Source: a virus
Taxonomy: Duplodnaviria; Heunggongvirae; Uroviricota; Caudoviricetes
Reading direction: 5' to 3' (one strand)
Length of the DNA stretch: 64,000 bases
Virus record (IMG/VR): IMGVR_UViG_3300045988_149282
Span: 1-64,000 of that record
A program made the translations under genes and the position numbers. Positions 28,298-40,456 of the stretch are shown in pieces. How positions within the stretch are numbered: the stretch's first letter is position 1; each line of letters starts with the position of its first letter. A model generated the notes under the pieces. The model searched no databases. It saw nothing but the letters and a program-made list of their open reading frames with translations, and was not told where the DNA came from.

Positions 28298-31200
28298 ATG
28301 GATCAGTTCAAGAAAAAGAGATTGCCCCTCCTGATTGCGGGAGCGGGCGGCAAAAAGAGCTCAGGCTCAAGCCGTACACCAGTTGAAGCGGATGATACCG
28401 TTAATTCGCGGGCCATGGCGTCTATCCTCGATCTGCTCGGGGAAGGTGTTGTTGGTGGGCTTATTAACGGTGCTAAATCTATCTTCATCGATGGCGTGGC
28501 GCTGGAGAACGAAGACGGATCATTCAACTATTCCGGTGTAACCTGGGATTTCCGGGATGGTTCACAAGACCAAAGCCCGATGCCTGGTTTCGATTTTGTC
28601 GAAACGCCAAAGGCCGTTAACACACAGCTGAAAACCACAAACGCGGTTACGGTCGCCATCGATAACGACGACGCTGATCGTGTCCGAGTGATCATGAAGT
28701 TCCCGTCGCTGCGTAGCATTGACAAGAAAACAGGGGACACAAACGGTACTTCTGTCCAGTTTAAGTTCCAGCTGGCCAATGGCAATGGCTCTTTCTATGA
28801 CGTGATTGCTACAGGTGAGAGCAGCTCTGACGTGAAGCTGACTGCGAAAAAGACTGGTGTCTACTACCGCAGTTACGAAATCCAACTTCCAAAGCCTGGG
28901 CGCGCCTATAAAGTGCGCGTGCTTCGTCTCTCCGCCGACAGCAACGATCAGTATCTCTTTAACGATACCTGGGTCGACTCTATCGGTGAGATCGTTGACA
29001 CCCCAATGAACTACCCGAACTCCGTTCTGGTTGGCCTTAAGGTTAACTCTGAGCAGTTTGGTAGCTCTATGCCGTCACGTTCGTATCTTATCCGTGGCCT
29101 CAAAATCCGTGTGCCTTCGAATTATGATGAAAATACGAACACTTATAACGGCGTTTGGGATGGAACCTTTAAGCTTCTGTCGTCTTCCAACCCTGCCTGG
29201 ATTCTGTTCGATCTGCTGACCAATGCTCGTTATGGCCTCGGCAAATTTGTTTCGGAGTCAATGATTGACCTTGGTCAGCTTTATCAGATCGGTCGCTACT
29301 GCGACGAAGAGGTTGATGATGGCTTTGGCGGCAAAGAAAAACGCTTTGCAATCAACACCCAGATCACCAGTCGTCAGGACGCTTATCGTCTGATTCAGGA
29401 TATTGCCGGCGCTTTCCGTGGCATGGTTTTCTGGGCTGGTGGCATGGTGAATATCATGCAGGACAGCCCGTCTGACCCTGTCATGCTGTTTACCAACGCA
29501 AACGTAAAAGATGGCCTGTTTACCTATAAAGGCTCAGCTCGAAAAGACCGGCCGTCCGTAGCGTTGATCACTTATAACAACAAACAAGACGGCTATAAGC
29601 AGAACGTTGAGTATGTTGAAGATCAGGAAGCGATGGCCCGATACGGGGAGCGCAAGACCGAGGCCGTTGCGTTCGGATGCACCAGCCGAGGTCAGGCTCA
29701 TCGTGTAGGTTTGTGGCTGCTCTATACCGCGCGTATGGAGTCAGACATGATCACCTTTACCGCGGGCCTGGACGCCTCGTTCCTGATGCCGGGCGAAACC
29801 GTTCTGATCCAGAACAAATATCGTGCCGGCAAACGCAATTCCGGTCGCATTGTCTCTTTCACCAAAAACAGCATCACCCTCGATGCACCTGTCTCTCTGA
29901 AAAAGAGCGGTAGCTTCATCCGTATCATCAATCAGGAAGGCAAAATCGTTGAGCGAGACATCAACGAGACCGGCGACAACATCACTAAAGTTACCTTCAA
30001 GACGGCGTTGGCCACAGCCGAACAACCAGTAGCGAATGGCGTCTGGACGATCACCGAACCAGACCTTGTTCCAATGCGGGCGCGCGTTGTCGCTATCGCG
30101 CAAGGTGAAACCCCGGGGTCGTTTGATATCACGGTGGTGCAGAACAATGCATCTAAGTACCAGGCGATTGATAACGGGGCCGCGCTCGTTCCAGAAAATA
30201 CGACGGTTCTTGATCCCACATATTCCAAACCGAGCAATCTGGTCATCTCAGAAGGCACCTATCTGTCCAGTCCGGGCAACTTGTCCGTGAAGCTGATGCT
30301 TGCCTGGGAAGGTAAATCACCAGAATACTGGGTCAGCTGGCGCCGCTCCGACGAGGGCAACGTCTCCAACTGGCAATCTGCCCGCGCCACGGAAGAACAA
30401 TATGAAATCGTCAATGTTGCCGAAAATGGGCGATATGACTTCCAGCTGTATTCCGTTTCCTTCGGCGGCAAAAAATCCGAGATCATTACTGCTGTCTATC
30501 AGGTAAAAGGCACGATGACGCCGCCAGGGGCGCCCACATCACTCACCGCGGTGGGGGATTATCGTAACGTGGTATTGAATTGGGTTAACCCTGATTCAGT
30601 CGACCTCGCGCAGATCAACGTGTATGCGTCCAAAACAAATAAGCTGGACACCGCAACACTCATTGCTCAGGCTGCAACAACGACTTTCACTCACGCTGGC
30701 CTGGGTGACAACGAGACCTGGTATTACTGGATTCGTGCGGTAAACAAACGTGGGATGGTAGGCCAGCCGAACTCGAACCTCGGTACAGAGGCCACCACTC
30801 GCGACGTATTGTCTTTCCTGAAAGATAAGATCACATCTTCTGAACTCGGCAAGGAGCTGCTCGACGAAATCGACAGCAAAGCCACTCAGGAGGCGGTAGA
30901 CAACGCCATTGGAGAGGTTCAGAACTCAGTCAACGAGTCTATCCAGCAAGTTGAAAACGATCTGGCGCAAACCTCCTCCGAAATTAAGGCGCAGGTTGAC
31001 TCTGTCAATCAGTCGCTGAAAGAGGATATAAAGACCGTCAATCAGACGATTGTTGACAACATCGATGCCGTCAACCAGACGATCAATACCAACATCTCCA
31101 ACGTAAACAGCCAAATTGAAGCTGCAAAACAGTCTATTAAAGACGGCGACGCGGCTCTGTCGCAGGAGATTAAGAATGCGCAGTCATCACTGACAACGTC

Positions 31201-40456: not shown

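What the first reader, a model, noticed from the sequence alone, without database searches (positions are those of the whole stretch)
28298..40456. Giant (~4052 aa) J-like central tail fibre with an inserted array of about eight CBM-like domains alternating with coiled-coil repeats
The gene following the M-L-K-I tip genes is 12.2 kb, roughly 3-4 times a canonical lambda-type J. Its N-terminus (with an FN3-like segment) and C-terminus look J-like. The middle ~2400 aa (about nt 32200-39250) is modular. Each module is a ~70-90-aa Ser/Thr/Gln/Asn-rich heptad-like segment (recurring ALSTLDSTVTQQGDKITSQGNSITKLTNDL...KKAD) followed by a ~150-aa domain that starts N-L-(L/I)-x-N-x-x-F-E-x-G-x-x-G-W and ends Y-x-D-D-V-x-V-x-D-V-T-D. 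Those are the hallmarks of CBM4/9/22-type carbohydrate-binding beta-sandwiches. About eight such modules occur, at DNA identity low enough (~70%) to suggest old duplications rather than assembly artefacts. A central fibre displaying multiple lectin-like domains along a coiled-coil stalk would imply multivalent glycan (LPS/capsule) binding by the tail tip itself.
Basis: partly seen in the sequence, partly recalled or inferred. Interest (0 to 1): 0.85.

Follow-up and report, generated by a model that had tools for sequence, protein, structure and literature searches.

The report
Giant lectin-studded phage central tail fibre
This is an intact 4,052-residue version of the lambda-type tail-tip protein J from a Klebsiella/E. 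coli phage-plasmid, in which about 2,700 residues (eleven sugar-binding-type domains separated by coiled-coil rods) have been inserted into the fibre shaft; the gene is common and already annotated, but this architecture and how such a long fibre triggers infection do not seem to have been described.

Summary
Window 28298-40456 (+) is one uninterrupted 4,052-codon ORF directly after the M-L-K-I tail-tip genes. Both ends are J-type: hub and FN3 domains at the N-terminus, the PF09327 tip-fibre domain at the C-terminus, with hits to solved lambda J and F-pyocin fibres. A 1,232-aa Webervirus J aligns to both ends, so about 2,700 residues were inserted inside the J coiled coil.

The insert holds 11 globular domains and 12 proline-free, Ser/Thr/Asn/Gln-rich heptad segments (1,223 residues). 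Seven domains are CBM4/9-type; four pass Pfam's cut-off and one is confirmed by AlphaFold2 plus Foldseek. The other four are a PA14-like lectin domain, a GTA head-spike-fibre domain, an ILEI/GG domain and a domain like the carbohydrate-binding domain of the R4C megatron protein.

The gene is not an artefact. It occurs in 424 PLSDB plasmids, 406 of them Klebsiella. dN/dS across the array is 0.048. Natural variants have lost exactly one module in frame, and the C-terminal receptor-binding domain is swapped between Klebsiella and E. coli versions. Relatives of 3,300-4,800 aa with shuffled module order exist.

Glycan binding is inferred from folds and was not tested. I rate it a new variant of a known kind, of moderate interest.

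The parts
28298..40456 (+). Giant J-type central tail fibre gene, 4,052 codons plus stop
   Evidence: Single ORF. Annotated CDS in 99.8% identical plasmid NZ_CP019283. PHROG 2589 'tail protein' 4486 bits.
28298..30817 (+). aa 1-840: J hub domains plus FN3 domains
   Evidence: PF24801 FNIII-A_GpJ 101-235, PF13550 357-519. NF049904 lambda_TipJ 20-929. Weak fn3 at about 745-820. Aligns to Webervirus J 8-954.
30818..31414 (+). cc0, aa 841-1039: first coiled-coil segment; its first ~130 aa correspond to the canonical J coiled coil
   Evidence: No Pro or aromatic residues, heptad score 0.47. Apolipoprotein/ZorA-type coiled-coil hits. Alignment to KpV522 J ends at aa 969.
31415..31861 (+). G0, aa 1040-1188: domain like the carbohydrate-binding domain of the roseophage R4C megatron protein
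   Evidence: PDB 8gtc_M residues 525-617, E 2.1e-5. That stretch lies in the CBM11-like 'carbohydrate-binding domain' 482-629 (PMC10276861).
31862..32452 (+). L1, aa 1189-1385: long coiled-coil segment, the only one enriched in the F7-pyocin fold-switch motif
   Evidence: Heptad score 0.47. 11 SxSxxMxxLxS-type matches against 1.7 expected, 0 of 500 shuffles. SlyX/SMC coiled-coil hits.
32453..32902 (+). G1, aa 1386-1535: CBM4/9-type beta-sandwich
   Evidence: PF02018 34.5 bits, GA 25.9. AF2 pLDDT >90 and Foldseek hits to CBM16/61/4-2/22. Leave-one-out HMM 74.8 bits.
32903..33157 (+). L2, aa 1536-1620: coiled-coil linker made of two helices with a break near the KAD motif
   Evidence: AF2 helices H203-246 and H249-290 of model 1. 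Profile hit to P22 gp26 coiled coil, E 2.5e-9. Heptad score 0.56.
33158..33631 (+). G2, aa 1621-1778: CBM4/9-type domain
   Evidence: PF02018 38.4 bits. Leave-one-out 62.2 bits.
33632..33733 (+). L3, aa 1779-1812: short coiled-coil linker
   Evidence: 62% S/T/N/Q, heptad score 0.67.
33734..34147 (+). G3, aa 1813-1950: PA14-like lectin domain
   Evidence: Profile A2 hits Pleurotus lectin 6kbj/6t0q at E 2e-7, plus Lap adhesin and RsgI3. AF2 pLDDT 93.9. Foldseek: Cea1A 1.7e-5 and MpPA14.
34148..34411 (+). L4, aa 1951-2038: coiled-coil linker
   Evidence: Heptad score 0.63, 0% Pro. Member of the 94-nt DNA repeat family.
34412..34867 (+). G4, aa 2039-2190: CBM4/9-type domain, divergent
   Evidence: PF02018 27.1 bits, GA 25.9. 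Leave-one-out only 15.4 bits.
34868..35122 (+). L5, aa 2191-2275: coiled-coil linker, 68% identical to L6
   Evidence: It is the recombination partner of L6 in the natural G5 deletion.
35123..35635 (+). G5, aa 2276-2446: CBM4/9-type domain, subtype shared with G10
   Evidence: PF02018 22.1 bits, below GA. Leave-one-out 48.1 bits. Absent, exactly and in frame, from plasmid NZ_CP062854.
35636..35905 (+). L6, aa 2447-2536: coiled-coil linker
35906..36373 (+). G6, aa 2537-2692: probable CBM-like beta domain with the weakest assignment
   Evidence: No Pfam hit. Leave-one-out 15.5 bits. NF048003 22.6 bits, below cut-off. Deleted as one module in NZ_CP166762.
36374..36652 (+). L7, aa 2693-2785: coiled-coil linker
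36653..37123 (+). G7, aa 2786-2942: GTA head-spike-fibre-type domain
   Evidence: NCBIfam NF048003 38.6 bits, cut-off 36. tblastn hits to Streptococcus PblB/gp58-like and Enterococcus phage tail fibres at 29-41% identity.
37124..37375 (+). L8, aa 2943-3026: coiled-coil linker
37376..37882 (+). G8, aa 3027-3195: ILEI/FAM3-type (GG) domain
   Evidence: PF15711 36.7 bits in the full protein and 42.1 bits alone, GA 27. Weak FAM3C/FAM3A PDB hits.
37883..38023 (+). L9, aa 3196-3242: short coiled-coil linker
38024..38467 (+). G9, aa 3243-3390: CBM4/9-type domain
   Evidence: PF02018 39.0 bits. Leave-one-out 90.0 bits.
38468..38737 (+). L10, aa 3391-3480: coiled-coil linker
38738..39229 (+). G10, aa 3481-3644: CBM4/9-type domain
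   Evidence: PF02018 25.6 bits, GA 25.9. Leave-one-out 48.0 bits.
39230..39622 (+). L11, aa 3645-3775: last coiled coil, homologous to the canonical J coiled coil just before the tip domain
   Evidence: Aligns with KpV522 J from 841 on, 51% identity over 3668-4052. Hits solved J-like fibres.
39623..40015 (+). aa 3776-3906: J tip-fibre domain (PF09327 / DUF1983)
   Evidence: PF09327 140 bits. Lambda J 8iyk residues 843-1004 at E 1e-11; F2 pyocin fibre at 2e-20.
40016..40453 (+). aa 3907-4052: C-terminal putative receptor-binding domain, exchangeable cassette
   Evidence: This version occurs only in 7 E. coli plasmids of PLSDB. It is replaced in Klebsiella p4727 and in SEV1-type plasmids. It is 76-79% identical to the Webervirus J C-terminus.
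25772..28281 (+). Upstream tail-tip genes M (25772-26107), L (26194-26892), K (26885-27682) and I (27670-28281)
   Evidence: RefSeq annotation transferred from L001. PF05939, PF05100, JAB + NlpC/P60.
40513..41952 (+). Downstream 479-aa tail fibre protein with a C-terminal S74 intramolecular chaperone domain (probable side fibre)
   Evidence: PF13884 44.5 bits. Annotated 'tail fiber domain-containing protein'.

Best explanation
The gene encodes the central tail fibre (tip attachment protein J) of a ~110-kb phage-plasmid related to SSU5 (the lineage common in Klebsiella pneumoniae, here in its E. coli version).

Shown:
- It has the normal J hub at its N-terminus and the normal J tip-fibre domain plus an exchangeable receptor-binding domain at its C-terminus.
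- The coiled-coil shaft that joins them in ordinary J proteins has been expanded by about 2,700 residues.
- The expansion consists of 12 heptad segments alternating with 11 beta-sandwich domains from five lectin/CBM-type families.
- Modules are gained, lost and reshuffled in frame by recombination between the conserved linker sequences.

Inferred:
- As J is a trimer, the shaft would be a three-stranded coiled coil up to about 180-220 nm long, with three lectin-like domains at each of 11 nodes, or 33 per virion.
- These domains bind surface polysaccharide (capsule, O-antigen or another common glycan) weakly and multivalently.
- That gives reversible adsorption and guides the fibre through the polysaccharide layer.
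- The terminal domain then binds an outer-membrane receptor irreversibly and triggers opening of the tip, as in lambda.
For: Identity as J:
- Position after M-L-K-I.
- Pfam, NCBIfam and PHROG hits.
- Solved J-like fibres hit by the C-terminal part.
- The canonical Webervirus J aligns to both ends only.

Lectin-type domains:
- CBM_4_9 above the gathering score for four domains.
- PDB profile hits to CBM22, CBM16 and CBM4.
- AF2 plus Foldseek for G1.
- PA14-like G3.
- GTA spike-fibre domain G7.
- ILEI domain G8.
- Megatron carbohydrate-binding-like domain G0.

Coiled coil:
- The linkers have essentially no proline (0-1%) and almost no aromatic residues, and a strong a/d periodicity.
- They are helical in the AF2 model.
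- They hit the P22 gp26 trimeric coiled coil at E 2.5e-9.

Functional gene:
- dN/dS is 0.048 over the array and below 0.15 for every module.
- It is present in 424 plasmids and 15 complete E. coli genomes.

Modular evolution:
- Exact in-frame loss of G5 (783 nt, junction inside the ITSQGNSITKLTNDL motif) and of G6 (738 nt) in natural plasmids.
- Relatives of 3,294-4,797 aa with different module order.

Terminal domain as the host determinant:
- The window-type C-terminus occurs only in E. coli plasmids, 7 of 7. The 406 Klebsiella plasmids carry other C-termini on a 97%-identical body.

Link to polysaccharide-rich hosts:
- Arrays of this kind occur in three unrelated Klebsiella phage lineages: the SSU5-related phage-plasmids, a phage with phiKO2-like (N15-type) partition genes (48ST307), and ~48-kb siphophages such as vB_Kp3, whose J has 3,358 aa and five CBM-like domains.

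Precedent:
- CBM decorations of siphophage tail-tip proteins bind host cell-wall saccharides (PMC7291167).
Against: - No binding experiment exists, and ligand-contacting residues were not assessed. A CBM fold does not prove sugar binding.
- The array is about 98% identical in protein between E. coli and Klebsiella plasmids, whose capsules and O-antigens differ. This argues against a serotype-specific ligand.
- The trimeric state, the lateral display of the domains and the extended length are inferred. AF2 was run on a monomer. Each ~90-aa linker has a helix break near the KAD motif, so the linkers could fold back and the fibre could be much shorter.
- The one EM description read for a related phage (HSE3) reports only a 189-nm tail and mentions no long fibre.
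- G6 is only weakly assigned.
Confidence: 0.62

Rival explanations
1. Reach or spacer model. The array matters mainly for its length and flexibility: it lets the terminal receptor-binding domain cross a thick capsule to reach the outer membrane. The beta-sandwich domains act as structural nodes or hinges, not as specific lectins.
For: - There are 1,223 coiled-coil residues, up to about 180 nm.
- Such arrays are concentrated in phages of heavily encapsulated Klebsiella.
- The array is nearly identical in plasmids of hosts with different glycans.
- Module number varies in nature without loss of the reading frame.
Against: - Five different lectin-type families were recruited. That is hard to explain if any spacer would do.
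- Each domain is under strong purifying selection.
- A plain coiled coil or FN3 string would give length more cheaply, as in T5 pb4 or lambda J.
Confidence: 0.15
2. Environmental adherence model. The lectin-like domains bind glycans that do not belong to the host, such as intestinal mucins, and hold the virion where hosts are found. This would resemble what is proposed for Ig-like capsid decorations.
For: - The array is conserved across plasmids of different host species while the terminal domain changes.
- The carriers are gut and clinical Enterobacteriaceae.
- G8 belongs to the ILEI/FAM3 family and G3 to the PA14 family. Both are also found in eukaryote-associated glycan-binding proteins.
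Against: - The domains sit on the infection organelle itself, between the hub and the receptor-binding tip, not on the capsid or tube.
- Related CBM decorations tested in lactococcal and streptococcal phages bind the host cell (PMC7291167).
- No data point to mucin binding.
Confidence: 0.08
3. Serial fold-switch motor. The coiled-coil segments are metastable and convert to beta-prisms after receptor binding, as shown for the F7 pyocin central fibre. This would shorten the fibre stepwise and pull the tail tip to the membrane.
For: - The F7 pyocin central fibre converts a 163-residue coiled coil into a beta-prism on target binding, and similar switches are predicted for many siphophage central fibres (PMC12874032).
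- The C-terminal part of this protein is homologous to F2-pyocin and lambda fibres.
- L1 is significantly enriched in the SxSxxMxxLxS pattern.
- A tip about 200 nm from the hub needs some way to bring the tube to the membrane.
Against: - The motif is not enriched in L11, the segment next to the beta-prism seed, or in the ten other segments.
- AF2 predicts helices for the linkers tested.
- The repeated linkers are Gln/Asn/Ser/Thr-rich rather than Ala-rich at the positions the pattern requires to be small.
- No alternative-conformation prediction could be run.
Confidence: 0.08
4. Assembly artefact or decaying pseudogene. The repeat array would be a mis-assembly, or the ORF would no longer be expressed.
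For: Some deposited copies are split by frameshifts, for example pKP389-3, whose neighbouring genes are also frameshifted. Some are mis-annotated as 'Chromosome partition protein Smc'.
Against: - There are no near-identical DNA repeats that could collapse. The best family is 94 nt at 61-72% identity.
- The same 12.16-kb ORF is found in independent complete assemblies at 97.7-99.8% identity and in 296 plasmids at 80% coverage or more.
- dN/dS is 0.048.
Confidence: 0.01

Closest known systems
Lambda gpJ and other lambda-type central tail fibres (Webervirus J such as KpV522 gp44, F-type pyocin central fibre)
   Same: - Same gene position after M-L-K-I.
- Homologous hub and FN3 region.
- Homologous last coiled coil, PF09327 tip-fibre domain and, for Webervirus, the C-terminal domain at 76-79% identity.
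   Different: The giant protein is 3.3-3.6 times longer. About 2,700 residues (11 lectin-type domains and 11 extra coiled-coil segments) sit inside what is a single ~140-residue coiled coil in KpV522 J. It scores 525 bits on the lambda_TipJ model, far below that model's 1950-bit cut-off.
'Evolved' Dit/Tal proteins and CBM-bearing Tal extensions of Gram-positive siphophages (lactococcal 936/P335 phages, streptococcal DT1/STP1)
   Same: Carbohydrate-binding modules of the CBM4-like (BppA-type) fold are grafted onto tail-tip proteins and add saccharide binding to the adhesion device (PMC7291167). The same fold is widespread in phage tail proteins.
   Different: Those phages carry one or two CBMs inserted in loops of Dit or Tal, or a few on a Tal extension. 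Here 11 domains of five families are strung on a long coiled coil inside a lambda-type J of Gram-negative phages. The homology of the carrier proteins was not tested.
Other giant J proteins in public data (Klebsiella phage vB_Kp3, 3,358 aa; 48ST307 tail fibre of more than 3,100 aa; metagenomic P0106 4,233 aa, P0110 3,695 aa, P0111 4,797 aa, P0112 3,294 aa; PHROG 2589)
   Same: Same hub, G0, alternating coiled-coil and CBM/PA14/GTA-spike/ILEI modules, and tip domain.
   Different: The number and order of modules differ. For example, P0111 has nine CBM-type domains with G8 placed first, and vB_Kp3 has five CBM-type domains. None of these appears to have been analysed in the papers I could search.
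P22 gp26 tail needle and other trimeric phage coiled-coil fibres
   Same: The linker profile matches the gp26 trimeric coiled-coil core at E 2.5e-9. The composition is polar and free of proline and aromatic residues.
   Different: gp26 is a 233-residue needle without inserted globular domains. The oligomeric state of the linkers here is inferred.
RcGTA / roseophage R4C baseplate (megatron protein, head-spike fibre)
   Same: G0 resembles the CBM11-like carbohydrate-binding domain of the R4C megatron protein. G7 matches the GTA head-spike-fibre domain model.
   Different: In those particles the domains sit on the baseplate body or on head spikes, not in an array along a central fibre.

Membership tests
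Lambda-type tip attachment protein J / central tail fibre | Gene lies directly downstream of the minor tail genes M, L, K and I | tested here: met
   PF05939, PF05100 and JAB + NlpC/P60 in the three preceding ORFs. I is assigned by position and annotation.
Lambda-type tip attachment protein J / central tail fibre | N-terminal hub domains with an inserted FNIII-A domain | tested here: met
   PF24801 107.6 bits, PF13550 111.1 bits. NF049904 matches residues 20-929.
Lambda-type tip attachment protein J / central tail fibre | Full-length equivalence to lambda J (NCBIfam NF049904 cut-off of 1950 bits) | tested here: not met
   525.4 bits, N-terminal part only. It is a J-family protein but not an equivalent of lambda J.
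Lambda-type tip attachment protein J / central tail fibre | C-terminal tip-fibre domain (PF09327 / DUF1983) followed by a receptor-binding domain | tested here: met
   PF09327 140.2 bits. Lambda J 8iyk residues 843-1004 at E 1.3e-11; J-like gp24 23gd_D at 1.4e-27. The C-terminal cassette is swapped between host species.
Lambda-type tip attachment protein J / central tail fibre | Trimer at the tail tip of the virion | not testable with these tools
   Needs virion proteomics or cryo-EM.
CBM_4_9 (PF02018) / CBM4-9-16-22 beta-jelly-roll carbohydrate-binding modules | Sequence match above Pfam's gathering score (25.9 bits) | tested here: met
   Met for G1 34.5, G2 38.4, G4 27.1 and G9 39.0. Just below for G10 25.6 and G5 22.1. 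No hit for G6.
CBM_4_9 (PF02018) / CBM4-9-16-22 beta-jelly-roll carbohydrate-binding modules | Beta-sandwich fold superposable on solved CBMs | tested here: met
   G1 model has domain pLDDT >90. Foldseek: CBM16, CBM61, CBM4-2 and CBM22 at E 1.5e-8 to 4e-6, target TM 0.5-0.77. Only G1 was modelled.
CBM_4_9 (PF02018) / CBM4-9-16-22 beta-jelly-roll carbohydrate-binding modules | Binds a carbohydrate ligand | not testable with these tools
   Needs binding assays or glycan arrays.
PA14 lectin domain | Sequence or fold match to PA14 domains | tested here: inconclusive
   Pfam gave no PA14 hit for G3. A profile of 28 homologues hits Pleurotus lectin at 2e-7, plus Lap adhesin and RsgI3. The AF2 model (pLDDT 93.9) matches Cea1A and MpPA14 at E 1.7e-5 to 7e-4, query TM about 0.5-0.58. 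It is PA14-like in fold; family membership is not established.
GTA head-spike-fibre domain (NCBIfam NF048003) | Score above the curated cut-off (36 bits) | tested here: met
   G7 scores 38.6 bits. G6 scores 22.6 bits, below the cut-off.
ILEI / FAM3 (GG) domain, PF15711 | Score above the gathering score (27 bits) | tested here: met
   G8 scores 36.7 bits in the full protein and 42.1 bits alone.
Trimeric alpha-helical coiled coil (P22 gp26-like) | Heptad periodicity, helix prediction and similarity to a solved trimeric coiled coil | tested here: met
   a/d occupancy score is 0.47-0.67 in linkers against 0.22-0.32 in globular parts, with 0-1% Pro. AF2 predicts helices. gp26 4lin at E 2.5e-9. Three-strandedness itself was not tested.
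Fold-switching coiled coil of F-pyocin / siphophage central fibres | Repeated SxSxxMxxLxS pattern in the coiled coil that precedes the beta-prism seed | tested here: inconclusive
   Enriched in L1 (11 against 1.7 expected; 0 of 500 shuffles). Not enriched in L11 (2 against 1.1) or the other segments. Pattern taken from PMC12874032.

The most novel reading that the evidence does not exclude
The twelve coiled-coil segments are not a passive stalk. They form a chain of metastable springs. After the terminal domain binds its receptor, they convert one after another from coiled coil to compact beta-prisms, as shown in 2026 for the single coiled coil of the F7 pyocin fibre. The conversion reels the virion through about 200 nm of capsule to the outer membrane. 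The lectin nodes act as ratchet holds on the polysaccharide.
Probability: 0.08. Interest if true: 0.85.

Novelty: new variant of a known kind. Interest (0 to 1): 0.5.

Why it matters
This phage-plasmid lineage is one of the commonest extrachromosomal elements of clinical Klebsiella pneumoniae, with 406 Klebsiella plasmids in PLSDB carrying this gene. It can also carry resistance genes (PMC9600943), yet its host-range determinants are described as poorly understood.

A central fibre with 33 predicted lectin-type domains and an exchangeable tip gives concrete, testable candidates for how these elements find encapsulated hosts. It also offers natural single-module deletion variants to test them with.

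It poses a mechanical question as well. If the receptor-binding tip can sit up to about 200 nm from the tail tube, how is the opening signal passed on, and how does the tube reach the membrane?

Central fibres were explicitly left out of a recent structural survey of Klebsiella phage receptor-binding proteins because they could not be modelled. This class is therefore under-described.

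Tried and rejected
- A full-length homology search timed out. Later searches with sub-regions returned only fragments shorter than 950 aa, so they did not show the family's length range.
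- BLAST of the protein against itself returned only the identity hit. I replaced it with a fragment-based dot-plot.
- Single-sequence PDB searches found nothing for G7 and only an insignificant sialidase hit for G3. G3 was resolved only after building a profile from the exhaustive representative search.
- Pfam on the whole protein does not report CBM_4_9 at all. The domains must be scanned singly.
- Weak similarity between the start of L1 and the end of L11 (score 65 against a shuffle mean of 40.7 and maximum of 64) is too weak to call a duplication scar.
- The F7 fold-switch motif is absent from most linkers.
- Papers on telomere phages, HSE3, Webervirus and a Klebsiella host-range evolution study contained nothing on this architecture. 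The phiKO2 genome paper is not held in the library.
- The phage-plasmid tRNAs (Asn, Thr, Ser, Tyr) do not match any codon preference in the gene, so I rejected a translational link as unsupported.
- I rejected an assembly artefact.

Full report

Yes. The ORF listing gives one ORF at 28292-40456 on the + strand. Translation shows no internal stop. The ATG at 28298, 16 nt after the stop of the preceding gene, gives 4,052 residues. The same CDS is annotated as 'phage tail tip fiber protein' on E. coli plasmid p13P484A-3, which is 99.8% identical over all 12,159 nt.

The genes upstream are the tape measure, M (PF05939), L (PF05100), K (JAB + NlpC/P60) and I. A 479-aa fibre protein with an S74 chaperone domain follows downstream.

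**2. What element is this?**

The window belongs to a ~110-kb phage-plasmid related to SSU5.
- 15 of 5,426 complete E. coli genomes carry the gene, always on plasmids.
- In PLSDB, 424 plasmids match: 406 Klebsiella, 7 Escherichia and 7 Cronobacter. Of these, 296 cover at least 80% of the gene.
- Klebsiella 'phages' such as vB_KpnS_p4727 and vB_Kpn_1825-KPC53 are 97% identical over the first 11.7 kb.
- PHROG 2589, a 3,686-position 'tail protein' profile, matches at 4,486 bits.
- NCBI already names fragments 'carbohydrate binding domain-containing protein'.

So the gene itself is neither rare nor unannotated.

**3. Anatomy**

*Both ends are J.* Pfam finds FNIII-A_GpJ (101-235), Phage-tail_3 (357-519) and Phage_Tail_Tip (3776-3906). 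NCBIfam lambda_TipJ matches residues 20-929. The last 408 residues hit solved J-like fibres: 23gd_D at 1.4e-27, the F2 pyocin fibre at 2e-20 and lambda J 8iyk at 1e-11.

*The middle is an insertion.* The 1,232-aa J of Webervirus KpV522 aligns to residues 19-969 (29% identity) and to 3668-4052 (51% identity). Its single coiled coil overlaps both alignments. About 2,700 residues therefore sit inside the J coiled coil.

*The insertion alternates linkers and domains.* A dot-plot shows eleven recurrences of a linker. I count 12 linker segments of 34-199 aa, totalling 1,223 residues. They have essentially no proline (0-1%) and almost no aromatic residues, and are 38-62% Ser/Thr/Asn/Gln. Their heptad a/d score is 0.47-0.67, against 0.22-0.32 in the globular parts.

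*The linkers look like trimeric coiled coil.* A profile of linker-domain-linker units hits the trimeric coiled coil of P22 gp26 at E 2.5e-9. AlphaFold2 predicts the flanks of G1 as helices, with a break near the KAD motif.

**4. The eleven globular inserts**

- G1, G2, G4 and G9 pass the CBM_4_9 gathering score when scanned singly. G10 (25.6 bits) and G5 (22.1 bits) fall just below it. G6 has no Pfam hit.
- Leave-one-out HMMs tie G1, G2, G5, G9 and G10 together strongly. G4 and G6 are tied only weakly, at about 15 bits.
- The profile hits CBM22 (4xup, 6e-12), CBM16 (2zex) and CBM4 (1gui).
- The G1 model (beta part pLDDT >90) matches CBM16, CBM61, CBM4-2 and CBM22. It also matches CBM-like domains of Klebsiella phage tailspikes. 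The fold is common in phage tail proteins.
- G3 is PA14-like. An exhaustive search found 80 relatives, mostly in proteins of 1,000-6,500 aa. Their profile hits PA14-type lectins at 2e-7. The model (pLDDT 93.9) matches Cea1A and MpPA14.
- G7 passes the NCBIfam GTA head-spike-fibre domain model. It also resembles domains in PblB-type streptococcal and enterococcal phage fibres.
- G8 is an ILEI/FAM3-type domain.
- G0 resembles the CBM11-like carbohydrate-binding domain of the R4C megatron protein.

All eleven therefore belong to, or resemble, families whose characterised members bind glycans. Binding by these particular domains was not tested.

**5. Not an artefact, and evolving by modules**

- The best internal DNA repeat is 94 nt at 61-72% identity. 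The domains share 20-35% protein identity.
- Against the Klebsiella copy, the array has 235.5 synonymous and 39.5 non-synonymous differences, giving dN/dS of 0.048. Every module is below 0.15. dS is mosaic: G5 0.47 and the tip 0.72.
- Plasmid NZ_CP062854 lacks exactly one module (G5, 783 nt). The junction lies inside the ITSQGNSITKLTNDL motif shared by L5 and L6.
- NZ_CP166762 lacks G6 (738 nt).
- Larger and smaller relatives have other module orders: P0111 4,797 aa, P0106 4,233 aa, P0110 3,695 aa and P0112 3,294 aa.
- Klebsiella siphophage vB_Kp3 has a 3,358-aa J with five CBM-type domains.
- 48ST307, a 52-kb phage whose partition genes are annotated as phiKO2-like, has a fibre of more than 3,100 aa.

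**6. The tip**

The body is shared, but the last ~140 aa differ.
- The window type occurs only in E. coli plasmids, 7 of 7. It is 76-79% identical to the Webervirus J C-terminus.
- Klebsiella p4727 has an unrelated C-terminus.
- SEV1-type plasmids have a third, short C-terminus followed by a remnant of the window type.

This is the pattern expected of a receptor-binding cassette.

**7. Mechanism**

What is shown is a J protein whose shaft is expanded by lectin-type modules.

What I infer is a trimeric fibre that carries 33 lectin-like domains and serves reversible, multivalent polysaccharide binding ahead of irreversible binding by the tip. The closest concept is the CBM-decorated Dit/Tal of Gram-positive siphophages.

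The length of about 180-220 nm is an upper bound, because the linkers might fold back.

The near-identity of the array across hosts with different glycans leaves room for two rivals: a pure 'reach' role, and binding of common or non-host glycans.

The recent F7 pyocin work shows a coiled-coil to beta-prism switch in a homologous fibre. Here its sequence signature is enriched only in L1. A serial fold-switch motor is therefore possible but weakly supported.

**8. Novelty**

I found no paper describing this architecture. A 2026 survey of Klebsiella phage receptor-binding proteins excluded central fibres because they could not be modelled. The parts are all of known kinds and the gene family is widespread. 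I rate it a new variant of a known kind, of moderate interest.

Noticed in passing
window 54864-55491: A cluster of four tRNA genes (Asn-GTT, Tyr-GTA, Thr-TGT, Ser-TGA). Ser, Thr and Asn together make up 28% of the codons of the giant fibre gene, but the gene shows no preference for the codons these tRNAs read best (ACA 18%, TCA 11%).
   Followed up: partly
window 55785-57919: A low-GC island (GC 0.34 at 56-58 kb) next to the tRNAs. It holds a 184-aa predicted lipoprotein (+) and a 442-aa N-terminally membrane-anchored protein (-). Neither has a Pfam or PADLOC hit. A glutaredoxin (58059-58304) and a tyrosine recombinase (58515-59618) follow. This may be accessory cargo.
   Followed up: partly
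L004 11940-12714 and L005 (E. coli plasmids NZ_CP151549, NZ_CP062854): In these plasmids the fibre ORF ends in a different, short C-terminus (...NGTLEINGNSGGNGRLVINGQRIDVYDDNNVLRVRIGRL). A GC-rich hairpin follows, then an intact remnant of the window-type receptor-binding domain annotated as a separate 103-aa ORF. It looks like a cassette replacement by insertion.
   Followed up: partly
window 21187-25728 compared with 28298-40456: The tape measure protein has about 1,510 residues, which predicts a tail of roughly 225 nm by the usual 0.15 nm per residue rule. That is about the same as the maximal length estimated for the central fibre (about 180 nm of coiled coil plus 11 nodes).
   Followed up: no
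window 32014-35179, minus strand: Several long antisense ORFs lie inside the fibre gene, for example 34196-35179 (327 aa) and 32014-32847 (277 aa). They are most likely by-products of the repetitive Ser/Thr/Gln codon composition. I did not examine them further.
   Followed up: no
PLSDB records OW967791, OW849327, OW968253; phage OR256024: Automatic annotation calls this fibre gene 'Chromosome partition protein Smc' in some records. The long coiled coils probably cause this.
   Followed up: no
P0113-P0183 (hits): The PA14-like G3 domain recurs in about 70 other very large proteins (1,000-6,542 aa) from metagenomes. In these it occurs with CBM_4_9, BppA-type CBM, Laminin_G_3, pentraxin and gp58-like domains. 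Some carry three or four copies. These proteins are uncharacterised.
   Followed up: partly
window 26729-27682: The K-type tail protein combines a JAB/MPN domain and an NlpC/P60 peptidase domain, as in lambda K.
   Followed up: no
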